DNA of 64,000 nucleotides, taken from the NCBI RefSeq assembly GCF_044324875.1, contig NZ_CP172185.1; one strand, given 5' to 3'. A program made the translations under genes and the position numbers. The notes under the pieces were generated by a model that was not told the origin of the DNA, made no database searches, and saw only the letters and a program-made list of their open reading frames with translations. Shown piece by piece: positions 56,764-64,000 of this stretch. This DNA is from Escherichia coli (lineage in GTDB: Bacteria > Pseudomonadota > Gammaproteobacteria > Enterobacterales > Enterobacteriaceae). Positions within the stretch are counted from its first letter, which is position 1; the number at the start of each line of letters is the position of its first letter.

Positions 56764-56847
56764 ATGGACAAGCAACGCGGTTTTACACTTATCGAACTGA
56801 TGGTGGTCATTAACAGTAAATTACTGTACAAATACCGCATCTGTTAA
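56764..56847 (+). pseudogene. ppdD: 5' fragment of prepilin gene ppdD, truncated by insertion
   Basis: AAGGAG Shine-Dalgarno then ATG encoding MDKQRGFTLIELMVVI (type IV prepilin leader plus N-methylation region); frame leaves pilin sequence at about 56811 and stops after 11 more codons. Confidence 0.8.
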
Positions 56848-57190
56848 TTCATCTCTCTCCCACAATGCCACAATCCATAACATATTGATTTTAATACATA
56901 ATGATATCAAAAGGATTTGAACCATCTTAACCATCACTTCCCATTTTTAGACCCCCTTCTACTATATTTCTCGTCAGTAGAGATCTAATGGCATCTTTTC
57001 ACCTACGCACTAATAACGTATCCTTTGCTTTCGCCAAAATGGTGGTAATCATCTTTAGAACATAGTAAAAATACTGTTGATTTCTATATAGTTCTACCTC
57101 TCCTTTAGTTGTTATTAAGATGGCAGTTTCAAATCAGGAACACATAGGTATCATGTACTAACAGCTTTATAACTTAATCAGGTGCTAACC

Positions 57191-58468
57191 ATGGACTCGA
57201 AATCTCTTGTTGAACTTTCCCATGATATACAATCCGGACTAGGAAACATTGACGTTCCAGATTTTGATAACATCAAAACTATCGGAATGGCATCAATACT
57301 AGCAATGCATATACGCGGATTGGGAGAAATTGATTATGAAGTTTTAAGGAAAGTCAGTGACTTCTTTTTCAACATACCTTCATATGCTTTAAAAAGCGTA
57401 TTGGAAGTACTGGCTGAGATAGAATATGTAGATTTAATAACGAAAGACAAAAAAATATTGTCAGTAATTCCAAACGTTCCTCGATTCAAAGATCTCTATC
57501 AAGGTGTTGGTGATTATTTCACATTTAGCGATCTCAACGAACATGAGCAAGGCACATTGATAATATTATCTAATCTTCAAAACAAACCCGAAAACAGAGA
57601 CAAACTAATTCATTCTACAGGCATCGACAATACTCTTTTTTCTCGTTGTTTAGAGATTGGTGAAAAAGGTAACTATTTTAGAAATTATAGAGCTAGAGGA
57701 AAAAACATCATAGCTAGCCCATTTTATTTTGCCGATAATTTAGAGTCACTTGTCGATATTTCAGCCAAAATTGGTTCGAATGATATTGATGCTGTTTTAA
57801 AAATTATAAAAGATAATCAGGGATGGCCTCTCTCACTGATCGAATCACAATTAGAAATCGGTGGAAAAAAGCTAACAAAAGTACAAAAAGAACTTTTAAT
57901 TGGTTTTTGCCAAGAGGGTGTACTCAAACCCCCTTCAATTGATTTCGGAAACCAAAAACAAGAAACATTCATATTCACACCGAGGCCCGGAAATATAAAA
58001 TTGAATGCAGCTAACAGAGAGATTTATGAACGAGCAATGGCGTTAGTTTCTTGCGTTAGGAAAGGACAATTACTGCACGACAAATATAGAATAAGGCTTC
58101 CAGTTAGGATATTGGAATCATTAAAAGAAAAAGGTTATCTTAATCAAAATTCAGAAGCTGCATCCCAGTATAGGAATCTGGTGTTTTTGAAGGTTGGAAT
58201 GCTAAAAGCTAAGGATCATAACAAGTGGGAATTTCATTTAATAAAAACAGAAGAAAACATTGAAGCATTAGATTTAGCAATAAGTCTCTTAAAAACAGGA
58301 GAACTTGCAAATTTAGAAGTTGATCAAAATGCAAAAATAGCATTAACACAAGATGAAAAATACATTCAATCGATCATTAGCTCCGCAGAACTTAGAACTA
58401 GAGAGAAGATAAAACAAAGCGAGGAAGCAAAAGAACAATTTGAACAACTGATTTTCGAAATGGAGTAA
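57191..58468 (+). CDS. hypothetical protein, island operon gene A (no family recognised)
   Basis: About 425 aa from MDSKSLVEL with AGGTG Shine-Dalgarno 7 nt upstream (ORF-track GTG at 57182 is an alternative); AT-rich codon usage; stop overlaps the gene B start. Confidence 0.75.
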   Translation: MDSKSLVELSHDIQSGLGNIDVPDFDNIKTIGMASILAMHIRGLGEIDYEVLRKVSDFFFNIPSYALKSVLEVLAEIEYVDLITKDKKILSVIPNVPRFKDLYQGVGDYFTFSDLNEHEQGTLIILSNLQNKPENRDKLIHSTGIDNTLFSRCLEIGEKGNYFRNYRARGKNIIASPFYFADNLESLVDISAKIGSNDIDAVLKIIKDNQGWPLSLIESQLEIGGKKLTKVQKELLIGFCQEGVLKPPSIDFGNQKQETFIFTPRPGNIKLNAANREIYERAMALVSCVRKGQLLHDKYRIRLPVRILESLKEKGYLNQNSEAASQYRNLVFLKVGMLKAKDHNKWEFHLIKTEENIEALDLAISLLKTGELANLEVDQNAKIALTQDEKYIQSIISSAELRTREKIKQSEEAKEQFEQLIFEME

Positions 58469-59571
58469 TGGTAATGGCTAACTTAGATAAAGACCTAGGT
58501 TTGAAGCAAGACGCTATAAGGTTTTGCTTGATAAATGGTTACTTGCCATTTTTAGAAGTTAACGTTGAAAACTATAGGGAACTTTCTGATACATCTACAA
58601 TTATAACAGATGTAGATGTTTTAGGGGTTGCTTTTGATATAACTGGAAAAACCAGAAAGATAATTTTCGATTGTAAAACCATTAAAAATACCAGCCCTAT
58701 TAATAGAGCGTTTTGGGCTTCCGGTGTTATGAATTTTTTAGGCTATGATGAAGCATTCATCATATTAAGAAAGAAAGCAAGTGAGGCCCATAGACTTTCC
58801 GCAAAAACAATTAATGTCCACCTTTTTGATGAAGATCAAATGAAAGGATATGCTCAATCATTTTCAATGAATTTCAATATTGATTTAAGCTACTCTACGG
58901 ACATTAATAATTGGATAAGTATACAGGAAGTATATAAAACAGATAAAACCATCCAAAAATATGGCGAATTTTTAGCAAGTTCGGTTCCTACAGAAAATGA
59001 TCCAGCGAAGAATTTGAGAAGATTTATTGCTGCTTTACAAAAAGTGAAGAATGAACTAGACCCTCAAAAAAATAAACACAGAGCAATTTACTTGCATAGT
59101 CTAATGACATTCTCATATATTATGGCATGCTTAGTGCAGCAACTAAGAGGGTTAATTGATTTTGATTATAATCAGAATGAATTCACAAGACTTCTCAAAT
59201 ATTATATCTGGGGAGGGAAGGATAGCTTTATATTAAGACATAAGATGAGAGAACTAATCTCATCTAATGACAGTTCGATTCAAAATATAGAGCCAGAGTT
59301 AAGGAATTGGGATGACTTTATTGAACTCACAAGGAGTCTACTTGACTCTCCTAATGATATAATTAAATGTTGCCATGTGTTACGTGAATTTAGTTTTTTA
59401 GAACTATCCATGCATGACATTAAAAAGGATGAGCAACTATCCACTCTAATTTCAGATAATTCAAGAATTCGTCAATTTATAATGATAATGGCTAGATACT
59501 TAACCAACTCGATGAAAATGCCAAAAGATTTCATTAACGATCTAGTATCAATATTTGATAGATTGAGATAA
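58468..59571 (+). CDS. hypothetical protein, island operon gene B; N-terminal PD-(D/E)xK-like motif
   Basis: 367-aa ORF; TAATG overlap with gene A (alternative ATG at 58474 has GGAG 8 nt upstream); residues 48-70 TDVDVLGVAF...KIIFDCKT fit hD...(D/E)xK. Confidence 0.75.
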   Translation: MVMANLDKDLGLKQDAIRFCLINGYLPFLEVNVENYRELSDTSTIITDVDVLGVAFDITGKTRKIIFDCKTIKNTSPINRAFWASGVMNFLGYDEAFIILRKKASEAHRLSAKTINVHLFDEDQMKGYAQSFSMNFNIDLSYSTDINNWISIQEVYKTDKTIQKYGEFLASSVPTENDPAKNLRRFIAALQKVKNELDPQKNKHRAIYLHSLMTFSYIMACLVQQLRGLIDFDYNQNEFTRLLKYYIWGGKDSFILRHKMRELISSNDSSIQNIEPELRNWDDFIELTRSLLDSPNDIIKCCHVLREFSFLELSMHDIKKDEQLSTLISDNSRIRQFIMIMARYLTNSMKMPKDFINDLVSIFDRLR

Positions 59572-59577
59572 AAAGAA

Positions 59578-62479: not shown

Positions 62480-62590
62480 GCATATCAATAAATGATCGAT
62501 AAAAACGATCAATTAATGGATTATTGATTGCTATAATCGATCAATTACTATTAATTCAATACAAATCAATAGGTAAAATCGATCAAGAGG
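62480..62590. repeat. iteron-like direct repeats, GATC-rich
   Basis: Three copies of a-atcgatcaa at 62503-62513, 62535-62545, 62577-62587 and two longer atcaata...atcgat units; several GATC sites. Confidence 0.6.
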
Positions 62591-62754
62591 ATTCGTCATC
62601 CATGAAAGGGGTTATGTATCTGATTTCAATACAGGGAGTATTAGCGATACCATCACGCAAACGCTCTTAAAGCGTAGCTACGGCGTTTTGTAGGGTTTTG
62701 GTCATTCATGTGTGTCAGTAATGAACATCGCATTCAGGGGCTTCCTGTGCGTTT

Positions 62755-63241
62755 TGTCCGAAACACCATCATGAAGGGGGACAGATCGGATCGGGGTCGC
62801 TTCGCTCTGGTCAGTACTGGATAGTTCTTTTCCAGTAACTGAAACCGCAGATCCCCCACTAAGTACACAAAGGAATCAGTAGTATAATAAGTAATTAAAT
62901 AGCAATCAGTTATGTACTGAATGACAGAACAGAAAAACGCGATTGGTTCGCTCTGCCAGTGACTGAAAGGAACGAAGCAGTAGAACCTAATCCAGCGAAC
63001 AGTACACGCAAAGCGGGTACTGTTTAATTGTTTTATCTATGTAAACAATGGGATAGCTATCAAGTACTCACTGCGTGAGCACTCTCACTAACTACCCGAA
63101 ACAGTTCGCTTGCTTCGCCGCTCCTACTTTCAGGTAGTTAATTCGCTTTCGCTCGTTGTGATGTCCGAAATTTATTACCTATAGTATTATAAGGTATTAT
63201 TTTCCGGACATTTATGTATTTTTATGATGGTGTTCTGGACA
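62755..63241. repeat. 18-bp imperfect inverted repeat pair flanking ~450 bp of motif-rich non-coding DNA
   Basis: tgtccgaaacaccatcat (62755-62772) against the reverse complement of atgatggtgttctggaca (63224-63241), 16 of 18 matching; interior holds CAGT-N-ACTG palindromes and ttcgctctg repeats. Confidence 0.6.
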
Positions 63242-64000
63242 TCATTTTTTGCTTTTTTGTACTTCCTTTTCGTATTTGTTCCACATAGCCTTTTGCTCTT
63301 CGGGACTGAGTGCTGTATTACCACTGGCAAGAAACACCTTGAACGCTTCTAACTCAAGCCCTGGGTTGTGGCTTTTCCAGCGGCGAAAACGCTTAGCGTG
63401 ATTATCATCAAGAGTGAAACGCTTTTGCTTATTCTTTGAACCTTGCGGCCTGCCTCTCGACCTCTGCTCATCATCAATACCGATATCTATATACTCAATA
63501 TTATCTGTAAGAGATCTGGCTTGCCATTCATCAAAAACATAAACAGTCTGTGTTTCAGTACTGTCAAAATCCCTTGAAATTCCTCGTAGTACGAACTGGT
63601 GTAAACTTTCGTACTCCCTCGCAACATGTATCGCCTCGCCGTCAATCTCAAAGAACAATTCGCACTGTTTAGCCTCTGTTTCAGAGGGACGCATACAAGC
63701 GAGCCAGACGCACGTGAGCAAGTGTTGGTACTGGTTAAATCCTCTGGCATCCGGGCTTATCTCTGTGCCGTTCCTTAGGCTCTGAGAATCGCTTTTGTTC
63801 TTCGTCCAGTAGAAATCCTGCCCCTCAAGTTTCTCATCAATAAATGAGTATATTTTTTGTACTTTATCAGGGTTGTTAGTCTTCCATGTCTTTGATAGTT
63901 TGTTGTTTTTTGAGAAGTAATAAACTTTTAATCTGTTTTTGAGTTCAGTTTTTCGTGTCAGTAATCCTTCAAGTTCAGTACTTTCAAAGAGTTCTTTATT
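63242..64000 (-). CDS. hypothetical protein, 5'-truncated by the window end
   Basis: My translation finds the frame of the 159-aa track ORF open for all 93 upstream codons to position 64000 (at least 252 aa); C-terminus has AT-hook-like RGRPQGSKNK. Confidence 0.6.
   Translation of the reverse strand, partial: NKELFESTELEGLLTRKTELKNRLKVYYFSKNNKLSKTWKTNNPDKVQKIYSFIDEKLEGQDFYWTKNKSDSQSLRNGTEISPDARGFNQYQHLLTCVWLACMRPSETEAKQCELFFEIDGEAIHVAREYESLHQFVLRGISRDFDSTETQTVYVFDEWQARSLTDNIEYIDIGIDDEQRSRGRPQGSKNKQKRFTLDDNHAKRFRRWKSHNPGLELEAFKVFLASGNTALSPEEQKAMWNKYEKEVQKSKK

What the first reader, a model, noticed from the sequence alone, without database searches (positions are those of the whole stretch)
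56811..64000. AT-rich accessory island interrupts the type IV prepilin gene ppdD
ppdD starts normally (MDKQRGFTLIELMVVI) and leaves pilin sequence after codon 16. From there to the window end (at least 7.2 kb) the DNA is much more AT-rich than the flanking core and encodes proteins with no housekeeping counterpart, plus a serine recombinase. The expected ppdD-hofB-hofC continuation is missing. A perfect palindrome acagtaa-a-ttactgt (56813-56827) lies 2 bp inside the junction. Only one island end is visible.
Basis: partly seen in the sequence, partly recalled or inferred. Interest (0 to 1): 0.8.

Follow-up and report, generated by a model that had tools for sequence, protein, structure and literature searches.

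The report
Mobile defence-type island splitting ppdD
A 9.6-kb mobile DNA island has been inserted by its own large serine recombinase into the E. coli pilin gene ppdD; it belongs to a little-described family of small enterobacterial islands that carry anti-phage genes, and here it carries an uncharacterised DNA-binder and nuclease gene pair.

Summary
ppdD is cut within codons 13-16, GC falls from about 0.53 to 0.33, and the palindrome is real.

The closest complete genome (MSI001) shows the whole element. It is 9,597 bp and flanked by a 12-bp repeat, ATGGTGGTYATT. It ends with a 520-aa large serine recombinase gene next to the intact ppdD 3' part, hofB and hofC.

The island differs by 1 nt in 7.2 kb between strains whose adjacent core DNA differs by 2.2%. 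It also sits at the same ppdD position in other genera. It is therefore a recently mobile, site-specific element.

It belongs to an Enterobacterales family with a shared backbone: a small serine recombinase, two envelope proteins, a roughly 1-kb conserved noncoding region and a 477-aa P-loop protein. Family members use interchangeable integrases.

The variable slots beside the small recombinase hold Lamassu, TIR/NACHT and methyl-directed restriction enzymes in sibling elements. Here the slot holds a conserved, unannotated pair: a tandem winged-helix protein and a PD-(D/E)xK nuclease. This pair is a candidate new defence system.

How the island moves between cells is unknown, as is the role of the noncoding block. 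Verdict: a real new member of a known kind, of moderate interest.

The parts
56764..56847 (+). ppdD 5' remnant. It has 16 pilin codons, then 11 island-encoded codons and a stop. The ppdD promoter and leader remain upstream.
   Evidence: RefSeq annotates it as a prepilin-type N-terminal cleavage/methylation domain protein of 84 nt.
56800..56811 (+). attL core ATGGTGGTCATT. The same 12 bp, with T at position 9, recurs at attR, which would lie at about window 66397-66408, beyond the window end. Natural polymorphisms bracket the crossover to GTGGT.
   Evidence: for E. coli attL, attR and attB. for the attR variant ATTGTGGTCATT in another genus.
56813..56827 (.). Perfect palindrome ACAGTAA-A-TTACTGT. 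Its right half, TTACTGT, is the inverted partner of an ACAGTAA motif that lies at the same distance (17-23 bp) on the other side of the reconstructed attP centre.
   Evidence: unique in the window, 0 of 100 shuffles. (dyad analysis of the reconstructed attP).
57191..58468 (+). Cargo gene A, 425 aa. It is predicted to be a tandem array of winged-helix domains and matches no known family.
58474..59571 (+). Cargo gene B, 365 aa. It has an N-terminal PD-(D/E)xK nuclease fold with invariant E28, D46, D48, D66 and K68, and a C-terminal all-helical domain.
59709..60266 (-). Small serine recombinase of the resolvase/invertase type, 185 aa, with the motif YARVSTKDQ. Homology to sibling elements with other cargo begins at its 3' end (59715/59721).
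   Evidence: phrog_125 DNA invertase, 6.8e-59.. (homology breakpoints).
60289..60340 (.). Two 24-nt direct repeats (AGTATCATTTAAATT...) just upstream of the small recombinase gene. They are candidate recombinase binding sites or a promoter region.
   Evidence: family D5, L001 8550-8601.
60400..60775 (.). Second cargo slot, empty in this island. Sibling elements carry Lamassu, PDC-S60, or PDC-M45 with methyl-directed restriction enzymes at this position.
   Evidence: homology breaks at about 60390-60400 and 60774-60827...
60815..61174 (-). Backbone gene of 119 aa with an N-terminal signal-peptide-like sequence. One sibling element has an LprI-family periplasmic protein at this position.
   Evidence: No family match.
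61218..62258 (-). Backbone gene of 346 aa with hydrophobic N-terminal segments that suggest a membrane protein. Its function is unknown.
   Evidence: (no matches). (conserved across the family).
62259..63241 (-). Conserved noncoding region. The proximal block, 62755-63241, is about 490 nt and bounded by a 17-21-bp inverted repeat. It is 79-100% identical across genera. The distal part holds four ATCGATCAA repeats at 62490-62590.
   Evidence: alignments. (no Rfam match). (folding energies). (covariation not significant). (repeats). (no codon periodicity).
63242..64000 (-). 3' part of the 477-aa P-loop protein gene. The protein is SF2/ResIII-like, with Walker A APCGSGKT and an AT-hook-like RGRP motif near the C-terminus. 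The gene runs off the window. Beyond it lie the 520-aa large serine recombinase gene (about window 64793-66355, minus strand) and attR.
   Evidence: (ResIII, 1.6e-4). (Resolvase, Recombinase and Zn_ribbon_recom domains in the large recombinase)..

Best explanation
The window end holds the left 7.2 kb of a 9,597-bp integrative mobile island.

Integration. The island encodes a large serine recombinase at its far end, just outside the window. I infer that this enzyme recombined an island attP with an attB inside codons 13-15 of ppdD. Strand exchange falls within GTGGT, most likely at a GT dinucleotide. The result is attL at 56800-56811 and attR 9.6 kb further on. The insertion separates the ppdD promoter and signal peptide from the rest of ppdD-hofB-hofC, so the type IV pilin operon should be silent while the island is present. 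Precise excision should restore it.

Family. The island belongs to an Enterobacterales family with a common backbone: a small resolvase/invertase-type serine recombinase, two envelope proteins, a conserved noncoding region of about 1 kb, and a 477-aa P-loop protein. Family members use interchangeable integration modules, comprising at least two large-serine-recombinase lineages and two tyrosine integrases. Two variable cargo slots flank the small recombinase.

Cargo. In sibling elements the slots hold recognised anti-phage systems. Here slot 1 holds a widely conserved, unannotated two-gene module. I propose it is a nuclease-based defence system in which the multi-winged-helix protein A senses or binds nucleic acid and the PD-(D/E)xK protein B cleaves it.

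What is shown. The boundaries, the repeat, the identity of the recombinase, site specificity, recent horizontal spread, the family architecture, the defence content of sibling slots, and the predicted folds of A and B.

What is inferred. The exact crossover dinucleotide, silencing of the pilus operon, the defence function of A and B, and the roles of the small recombinase, the P-loop protein and the noncoding block.
For: Boundaries and occupancy. Empty and occupied sites define the island ends and a 12-bp repeat. The site is occupied in 6 of 5,426 complete E. coli genomes.

Integrase. The end gene has Resolvase, Recombinase and Zn_ribbon_recom domains. It matches the PHROG serine integrase family at 9.8e-43. 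It lies 42 bp from attR.

attP and crossover. The reconstructed attP has its best dyad centred on ATGG|TGGT, with ACAGTAA/TTACTGT arms. Position 9 differs between attL (C) and attR (T) in E. coli. Position 3 differs between attL (G) and attR (T) in another genus. Together these bracket the crossover to GTGGT.

Recent mobility. The island differs from MSI001 by 1 nt in 7.2 kb, against 112 differences in the adjacent 5 kb of core DNA. The same ppdD site is used in Enterobacter sichuanensis and in metagenomic relatives by a recombinase 73% identical to this one. The exact recombinase sequence is indexed in 599 blocks of the collection, and all eight places shown are in ppdD with the same cargo genes.

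Family architecture.. The two large-serine-recombinase lineages are 27% identical, while the P-loop proteins of the compared elements are 83% identical.

Sibling cargo is recognised defence: a ThsB-like TIR protein, PDC-S60, the complete Lamassu set LmuA/LmuC/LmuB, PDC-M45 and methyl-directed restriction enzymes. The slot boundaries are mapped.

Cargo pair. A and B are adjacent in Pantoea, Pseudomonas, a cyanobacterium and a Priestia plasmid, usually next to integrases, restriction-modification genes or ATPases. Their predicted folds are, and the catalytic residues of B are invariant.

Literature. Hochhauser et al. 2023 describe integrase/recombinase-only defence islands in E. coli with unclear mobilisation. 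Their tables list yggS-yggR (hotspot 6) and rcnR-thiM islands (PMC10121019). Small serine recombinases have been reported as markers of defence genes (PMC12632615).
Against: - No excision or integration product was observed. No circular junction or repaired attB from a carrier strain was available.
- No recombination directionality factor was identified.
- A and B match no PADLOC, Pfam, NCBIfam or PHROG family. Their defence role therefore rests on position and fold alone.
- The model of A is only moderately confident (pLDDT 72.5).
- The attB dyad symmetry is weak.
- One relative of the recombinase sits at a non-ppdD target (L032), so specificity is not absolute.
- Nothing in the island explains transfer between cells.
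- ppdD is poorly expressed in laboratory E. coli (my own knowledge), so the cost or benefit of interrupting it is unknown.
Confidence: 0.8

Rival explanations
1. The island is a helper-dependent replicative element, either a phage satellite or a hitcher of conjugative elements. After excision it would replicate from the conserved noncoding region using the P-loop protein. The small recombinase would resolve multimers, and the element would be packaged or transferred by a helper. Defence would be a side function.
For: - The backbone is conserved regardless of which integrase is attached.
- The noncoding block lies directly 3' of the P-loop gene and is more conserved than the protein.
- Four ATCGATCAA repeats carrying GATC sites look like iterons.
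- Hochhauser et al. raise an uncharacterised-satellite explanation for such islands.
- PLE, a known satellite, also integrates with a large serine recombinase (PMC6002521).
Against: - No capsid, terminase, primase, AlpA-type or relaxase gene was found by PHROGs, NCBIfam or Pfam.
- The noncoding block has no homologue in 50,697 phage or 72,556 plasmid records.
- The eight IMG/VR matches to a 17-nt motif were chance matches.
- The P-loop protein has only one distant phage relative, at 22% identity.
- No DnaA boxes were found.
Confidence: 0.2
2. The A-B pair is not a defence system. It would instead be an element-maintenance or addiction module, for example a nuclease toxin with a DNA-binding regulator, or a DNA-processing function of mobile elements.
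For: - No match to any catalogued defence family.
- The pair travels on plasmids and integrative elements in many phyla, as addiction modules also do.
- A is built of winged-helix domains typical of repressors.
Against: - The same slot in sibling elements holds bona fide defence systems.
- Neighbours of the pair in other taxa include restriction-modification genes, ATPases and integrases typical of defence islands.
- At 425 aa with four to five winged-helix domains, A is far larger than typical antitoxins.
- The pair is absent from phage genomes.
Confidence: 0.25
3. The main biological role is a reversible genetic switch. The island would act as an intervening element whose excision restores ppdD and type IV pilus or DNA-uptake function under particular conditions, as with elements in comK, sigK or spsM.
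For: - The insertion is inside a coding sequence, and precise large-serine-recombinase excision would restore it exactly.
- Downstream hofB and hofC are intact.
- Gene-interrupting large-serine-recombinase elements are well known (my own knowledge: Listeria A118 in comK, B. subtilis skin in sigK, SPbeta in spsM).
- A sibling lineage sits next to the pilus ATPase gene yggR.
Against: - Sibling elements with the same backbone sit in intergenic or RNA-gene sites (ffs, rcnR-thiM, yggR-yggS). Target-gene control is therefore not a property of the family.
- No directionality factor or regulatory link to the competence or pilus regulon was found.
- Only about 0.1% of complete genomes carry the island.
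Confidence: 0.12
4. The feature is an assembly artefact or an old, immobile remnant of a degraded prophage.
For: None beyond the AT-richness and the many hypothetical genes.
Against: - The same junctions occur in six independent complete genomes and many other assemblies.
- All genes are intact.
- The island is nearly identical across strains whose adjacent core DNA has diverged by 2.2%.
- PHROGs found no phage structural genes.
Confidence: 0.02

Closest known systems
Integrase/recombinase-only defence-carrying mobile islands of E. coli (Hochhauser et al. 2023, PMC10121019)
   Same: A small chromosomal island present in a minority of strains at a fixed site. It carries recombinase genes and defence-type cargo but has no phage, conjugation or transposition machinery. 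The sites of sibling elements (yggS-yggR hotspot 6, rcnR-thiM) appear in that paper's tables.
   Different: The ppdD site was not found in that paper or in its supplements as held, two of which were cut when stored. The conserved backbone, the swapped integrases and the noncoding block are not mentioned in the passages I read from that paper. The cargo here is not a catalogued system.
Gene-interrupting elements integrated by large serine recombinases (Listeria A118/phi10403S in comK, B. subtilis skin/SpoIVCA in sigK, SPbeta/SprA in spsM, Anabaena fdxN element/XisF). This comparison rests on my own knowledge.
   Same: A large serine recombinase encoded at the element end. Insertion inside a protein-coding gene, a short shared core and potentially exact restoration on excision. 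The parallel with comK is close, because ppdD belongs to the E. coli competence and pilus regulon.
   Different: Those elements are prophages or prophage remnants tied to developmental or infection-linked excision. This one is a 9.6-kb non-phage island. No excision trigger or directionality factor is known for it.
Vibrio cholerae PLE, a phage-inducible chromosomal island-like element (PMC6002521)
   Same: An anti-phage island integrated by a large serine recombinase. It is dedicated to defence and depends on outside factors for excision and spread.
   Different: PLE is about 18 kb, has a RepA initiator and an origin, and hijacks ICP1 particles. None of these features was detected here. There is no sequence similarity beyond the recombinase superfamily.
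Variable defence hotspots of P2 prophages and P4 satellites (Rousset et al. 2022, PMC9122126)
   Same: A conserved mobile backbone with defined slots in which unrelated defence systems replace one another.
   Different: The backbone here is unrelated to P2 or P4. The slots flank a small serine recombinase. The integrase module is itself exchangeable.
PD-(D/E)xK nuclease effectors of defence systems (Can2/Card1, Shedu SduA, type IV and IIS restriction enzymes)
   Same: Protein B shares the fold and the catalytic D...D-x-K signature.
   Different: B has no CARF, DUF4263 or methyl-binding domain. Its C-terminal helical domain and its multi-winged-helix partner have no described counterpart. It has no PADLOC match.

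Membership tests
Element integrated by a large serine recombinase | N-terminal resolvase-type catalytic domain with a serine nucleophile | tested here: met
   Pfam Resolvase PF00239, 4.4e-6, residues 5-125. The motif YARVSSRGQ is visible in the translation.
Element integrated by a large serine recombinase | Recombinase domain plus zinc beta-ribbon domain in the C-terminal extension | tested here: met
   PF07508 at 1.2e-6 and PF13408 at 1.7e-7. PHROG 95 serine integrase at 9.8e-43 over residues 1-475.
Element integrated by a large serine recombinase | Integrase gene at the element end, next to an attachment site, with integration at one specific target | tested here: met
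   The gene ends 42 bp from the attR core. All complete genomes and all places shown have the element in ppdD. The same site is used in other genera. One relative sits at another target (L032).
Element integrated by a large serine recombinase | Attachment sites with a short common core containing the crossover dinucleotide and imperfect dyad arms, and no transposase-type duplication | tested here: inconclusive
   There is a 12-bp shared core. Polymorphisms bracket the exchange to GTGGT. The attP dyad scores 13 of 24 with ACAGTAA/TTACTGT arms, but the attB dyad is weak. The dinucleotide has not been mapped experimentally.
Element integrated by a large serine recombinase | Demonstrated attP x attB recombination and excision dependent on a directionality factor | not testable with these tools
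   This needs in vivo or in vitro recombination assays. No directionality-factor candidate was recognised.
Defence island or defence hotspot | The same locus or slot holds different known defence systems in related elements | tested here: met
   Lamassu LmuA/LmuC/LmuB, a ThsB-like TIR protein, PDC-S60, PDC-M45 and methyl-directed restriction enzymes occupy the sibling slots. The slot boundaries are mapped.
Defence island or defence hotspot | The cargo of this island matches a catalogued defence family | tested here: not met
   Proteins A and B have no significant match in PADLOC-DB v2, Pfam, NCBIfam or PHROGs.
Defence island or defence hotspot | The cargo protects against phage | not testable with these tools
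   This needs a phage challenge of a strain expressing A and B.
Phage satellite (P4-like, PICI, cfPICI, PLE, PICMI) | Genes for helper exploitation or regulation, such as capsid remodelling, small terminase, AlpA-type regulators or primase-replicase | tested here: not met
   No such PHROG, NCBIfam or Pfam match was found for any of the seven proteins. The P-loop protein matches only PHROG 2467, of unknown function.
Phage satellite (P4-like, PICI, cfPICI, PLE, PICMI) | Replication origin next to an initiator gene | tested here: inconclusive
   A conserved noncoding region with four ATCGATCAA repeats lies 3' of the P-loop gene. No DnaA boxes were found and there is no homology to a known initiator.
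PD-(D/E)xK nuclease superfamily (protein B) | Alpha-beta-beta-beta-alpha-beta core fold | tested here: met
PD-(D/E)xK nuclease superfamily (protein B) | Conserved acidic and lysine catalytic residues, D...(D/E)-x-K | tested here: met
   E28, D46, D48, D66 and K68 are invariant in 41 sequences that are 37-84% identical to the query. The motif is retained in the Priestia homologue at 26% identity.
Small serine recombinase (resolvase/invertase) | Catalytic domain plus C-terminal helix-turn-helix, about 180-200 aa | tested here: met
   PHROG 125 DNA invertase at 6.8e-59 over residues 9-192. It aligns end to end with the Mpi invertase model but scores below that model's cutoff.
Small serine recombinase (resolvase/invertase) | Cognate res or inversion sites nearby | tested here: inconclusive
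   Two 24-nt direct repeats lie just upstream of the gene. No convincing inverted crossover sites flank a segment.
Structured noncoding RNA (the 490-nt block) | Conserved secondary structure supported by covariation | tested here: inconclusive
   The MFE z-score is -7.3 on the strand of the P-loop gene and -5.2 on the antisense strand. Consensus folding energy is -73.5 against -60.9 kcal/mol. Only 4 pairs show double changes, and 61 of 500 shuffles reach that count. There is no Rfam match.

The most novel reading that the evidence does not exclude
The island would represent an undescribed Enterobacterales family of small integrative elements. The family would be defined by three things: a P-loop/SF2-like protein, an adjacent noncoding block of about 490 nt bounded by an inverted repeat and possibly a new large structured RNA or a single-strand cis element, and two envelope proteins. 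This family would swap integrases freely and load defence cassettes into slots beside a resolvase-type recombinase. The cassette here, a multi-winged-helix protein plus a PD-(D/E)xK nuclease, would be a new anti-phage system found from Proteobacteria to Firmicutes and Cyanobacteria.
Probability: 0.35. Interest if true: 0.7.

Novelty: new member of a known kind. Interest (0 to 1): 0.5.

Why it matters
The island gives a precise and testable example of the integrase-only defence islands whose mobilisation is an acknowledged open question in E. coli pan-genome studies.

- Its ends, core sequence and recombinase are defined to within a few bases, so excision and integration can be assayed directly.
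- Comparing siblings that share a backbone but carry different integrases and cargo shows where cassettes are exchanged.
- It nominates a widely distributed two-gene module as a candidate nuclease-based defence system.
- It points to a strongly conserved noncoding element of unknown function.
- It inactivates the ppdD-hofB-hofC pilus and DNA-uptake operon in carriers, including an O104:H21 outbreak-type strain. This may affect phenotypes attributed to that pilus.
- The recombinase and attachment-site pair may also be useful as a genome-engineering tool.

Tried and rejected
- **Family searches.** PADLOC, NCBIfam, PHROGs and Pfam on all island proteins gave nothing for A, B or the 119-aa and 346-aa proteins. 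The P-loop protein gave only a weak ResIII match.
- **PDB sequence searches.** No hit for the P-loop profile or the 346-aa protein.
- **Rfam.** At E <= 1 over 56500-64000, only a sub-threshold L20-leader match at 59566-59659. I dismissed it as chance.
- **Exact 20-mer of the noncoding block in one genome per species.** 0 hits.
- **17-nt motif in IMG/VR.** 8 hits, none with homology to the block, so they are chance matches.
- **Noncoding block against plasmids and phages.** No match.
- **P-loop protein and protein A against phage genomes.** One distant hit in a jumbo phage for the P-loop protein, none for A.
- **Covariation test on 27 distinct copies of the noncoding block.** Not significant. 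I therefore do not claim an RNA.
- **Coding potential of the block.** Rejected: no codon periodicity, stops in all frames, and indels not in multiples of three.
- **Replication origin signals.** No DnaA boxes and only a modest GATC cluster.
- **Literature.** Searches for ppdD with serine recombinase, for the six RefSeq protein accessions and for the sibling-site gene names found no description of this element.
- **The ORF listing artefact.** It listed a 159-aa ORF at 63242-63721. This is part of the 477-aa gene that runs off the window, not a truncated gene.

Full report
**1. Checking the observation**

ppdD begins at window 56764 and encodes MDKQRGFTLIELMVVI. The frame then continues into unrelated sequence and stops at 56847. 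GC is 0.51-0.56 in the 6 kb upstream. It drops to 0.31-0.46 from about 56750 to the window end.

A 1-kb probe across the junction matched 5,424 of 5,426 complete E. coli genomes. In all but six of them the match stopped at probe base 412, which is window 56811. The other six matched end to end. The 7.2 kb to the right matched those same six genomes over its full length at 99.2-100% identity.

The palindrome ACAGTAAATTACTGT at 56813-56827 is unique in the window. None of 100 shuffles produced a match.

**2. The whole element**

The best match is strain MSI001. I fetched 48 kb around its copy (locus L001). The island ends 9.6 kb after it begins. Its last gene is a 520-aa 'recombinase family protein' on the minus strand. 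It is followed directly by a 134-codon ppdD 3' part, then hofB (annotated gspE), hofC, guaC and the normal core gene order. The missing continuation is therefore beyond the window end, not deleted.

Comparing attL (window), attR (L001) and an empty site (L002) gives:

| Site | Sequence |
|---|---|
| attB | gaactgATGGTGGTTATTggcatc |
| attL | gaactgATGGTGGTCATTaacagtaaattactgt |
| attR | agcagtatatcATGGTGGTTATTggcatc |

A 12-bp core is present at both ends, 9,597 bp apart.

**3. The integrase and the crossover**

The 520-aa protein has Resolvase, Recombinase and Zn_ribbon_recom domains. It matches the PHROG serine-integrase family over almost its whole length. It carries the YARVSS catalytic motif. 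It is a large serine recombinase, and its gene ends 42 bp from attR.

I reconstructed attP from the island-side halves. Its best dyad axis falls at ATGG|TGGT. An ACAGTAA motif lies 17-23 bp to the left and its complement TTACTGT lies at the same distance to the right.

Two natural polymorphisms bracket the strand exchange.
- In E. coli, core position 9 is C in attL and T in attR and attB. The exchange is therefore to the left of position 9.
- In a metagenomic copy from another enterobacterial genus (L034), core position 3 is G in attL and T in attR. The exchange is therefore to the right of position 3.

That leaves GTGGT, which contains the GT at the dyad centre. The exact dinucleotide is an inference.

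**4. Evidence for mobility and site specificity**

- The island part of the window differs from MSI001 by 1 nt in 7.2 kb. The 5 kb of core DNA immediately to the left differs at 112 positions. The same island has therefore entered different chromosomal backgrounds recently.
- The exact recombinase protein is indexed in 599 blocks of the public assembly collection. All eight places shown have it between ppdD 3' and the same cargo genes next to nadC.
- A recombinase 73% identical to this one sits at the same ppdD position in Enterobacter sichuanensis and in two metagenomic contigs. A fourth relative (L032) is at a different target that shares only ATGGT.

**5. The family**

About 84 complete E. 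coli genomes share parts of window 59715-64000, at other chromosomal sites and with other flanking genes. I fetched representatives. I also fetched six loci from other genera through the P-loop protein and 28 metagenomic loci through a motif in the noncoding region. I mapped the genes on all of them by tblastn.

The recurring order is: integrase, then the 477-aa P-loop protein, then the conserved noncoding region, then a protein of about 346 aa, then a protein of about 119 aa, then a variable slot, then the small serine recombinase, then a second variable slot.

The integrase module varies:
- the ppdD-type large serine recombinase;
- a 598-aa large serine recombinase only 27% identical to it, at yggR-yggS;
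- a third distant large serine recombinase, in L046;
- a tyrosine integrase at rcnR-thiM;
- another tyrosine integrase next to ffs.

The P-loop proteins of the ppdD and yggR-yggS elements compared are 83% identical. The P-loop family has 209 clusters, and every named source organism among the listed hits is an Enterobacterales species.

**6. Cargo slots**

Homology to siblings starts at window 59715/59721, the 3' end of the small recombinase gene. It breaks again between about 60400 and 60775. This defines two slots. Slot 1 lies between the island end and the recombinase 3' end. Slot 2 lies between the recombinase upstream region and the 119-aa gene.

In siblings these slots hold the following:
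- a ThsB-like TIR protein with a PDC-S60 NACHT protein;
- a complete Lamassu system (LmuA, LmuC, LmuB);
- a 1,014-aa PDC-S60 protein;
- PDC-M45;
- methyl-directed restriction enzymes.

In this island slot 2 is empty and slot 1 holds genes A and B.

Hochhauser et al. list yggS-yggR as hotspot 6 and record rcnR-thiM islands with no recognised mobile-element type. They describe integrase/recombinase-only defence islands whose mobilisation is unclear (PMC10121019). A 2025 preprint reports small serine recombinases as general markers of defence genes (PMC12632615).

**7. The cargo pair**

A (425 aa) and B (365 aa) match nothing in PADLOC, NCBIfam, PHROGs or Pfam.

- Distribution. A has at least 621 homologues at 52-89% identity in Pantoea, Pectobacterium, Vibrio, Pseudomonas, Shewanella, Nostoc and others. 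B has 153.
- Pairing. The two genes are adjacent in every context examined. These include a cyanobacterium and a Priestia plasmid where A is 42% and B 26% identical. The neighbours are often integrases, restriction-modification genes or AAA ATPases. Neither protein is found in phage genomes (tested for A).

My working mechanism is that a multi-winged-helix nucleic-acid sensor is coupled to a nuclease effector. This rests on fold and location only.

**8. Backbone and noncoding region**

The small recombinase is a typical 185-aa resolvase/invertase, with two 24-nt direct repeats just upstream. The 119-aa protein has a signal-peptide-like N-terminus, and the 346-aa protein has hydrophobic N-terminal segments. 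The P-loop protein has an SF2-like Walker A, a weak ResIII match and an RGRP AT-hook-like motif.

Between the P-loop gene and the 346-aa gene lies about 1 kb without ORFs. It is 89% identical among six E. coli siblings.

The proximal 490 nt (window 62755-63241) is bounded by a 17-21-bp inverted repeat.
- It is 79-100% identical in 27 distinct copies from several genera, even where the adjacent protein is only 54% identical.
- It shows no codon periodicity.
- It has no Rfam match and no copy on plasmids or phages.
- It folds more stably than shuffled sequence, and better on the strand of the P-loop gene.
- Covariation is not significant.

The distal part has four ATCGATCAA repeats. I leave its nature open: RNA, a single-strand element, an origin or a protein-binding site.

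**9. Consequence for the host**

The insertion removes the promoter, the leader peptide and the first 12-15 codons from the remainder of ppdD. It also places 9.6 kb, ending in an oppositely oriented gene, in front of hofB-hofC. Established knowledge of type IV pilins says the N-terminal leader and cleavage site are required, so the annotated 134-aa 'PpdD' should be non-functional. This is an inference. Excision by a serine recombinase would restore the gene exactly.

**10. Verdict**

The feature is a site-specific mobile island integrated by a large serine recombinase. It belongs to the class of integrase-only defence islands, and it is a new member of a known kind.

Three aspects go beyond the ordinary:
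- the modular family with exchangeable integrases;
- the uncatalogued, widely conserved A-B module in a proven defence slot;
- the strongly conserved noncoding block.

None of these three has yet been shown to function as proposed.

Noticed in passing
window 62755-63241 (minus strand): A noncoding block of about 490 nt, bounded by the inverted repeat GTCCAGAACACCATCAT...ATGATGGTGTTTCGGAC, lies directly 3' of the P-loop gene. It is more conserved across genera than the neighbouring protein. It has no match in Rfam, plasmids or phages. It folds stably, but covariation is not significant.
   Followed up: yes
window 62490-62590: Four ATCGATCAA(T/G) repeats, each containing a GATC site, sit in an AT-rich stretch of the noncoding region. 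They look like iterons and may mark an origin or a binding array. No DnaA boxes are nearby.
   Followed up: partly
window 60289-60340: Two 24-nt direct repeats (AGTATCATTTAAATTAACTGAATG and AGTATCATTTAAATTCTTTCAATG) lie immediately upstream of the small serine recombinase gene. They may be res-like binding sites or an autoregulated promoter.
   Followed up: no
L032 about 12786-12916 (metagenome contig Ga0209371_1001608): A relative of the ppdD-type large serine recombinase, 73% identical to it, sits next to a non-ppdD sequence. The island-side arm is the same but only ATGGT of the core is shared. This suggests a secondary or alternative target.
   Followed up: partly
E. coli genomes of hits H100-H118 and H148-H161: About 34 complete E. 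coli genomes hold only short fragments of the family. One fragment is about 98 nt of the noncoding block and another is about 305 nt near the 119-aa gene, both at 81-89% identity. They look like decayed remnants of related elements.
   Followed up: no
window 51800-56800 compared with L001: The core DNA left of the island differs from strain MSI001 at 112 of 5,000 positions, with a dense cluster at 52372-52548 in the pdhR-aroP intergenic region. The island itself differs at a single base (58681).
   Followed up: partly
window 52250-52750: A local GC dip to 0.33 in the pdhR-aroP intergenic region. It is probably an ordinary AT-rich regulatory region.
   Followed up: no
L034 3986-6423: In a copy from another genus that carries the same A-B cargo, the second slot (empty in the window) contains about 2.2 kb of extra sequence. 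This shows that the two slots are filled independently.
   Followed up: no
L004 and L005 6900-8600; Hochhauser hotspot 6: A sibling lineage inserts beside yggR, a PilT-type pilus ATPase gene, while this one inserts in the pilin gene ppdD. Two type IV pilus loci are targeted by one element family. This may be coincidence.
   Followed up: no
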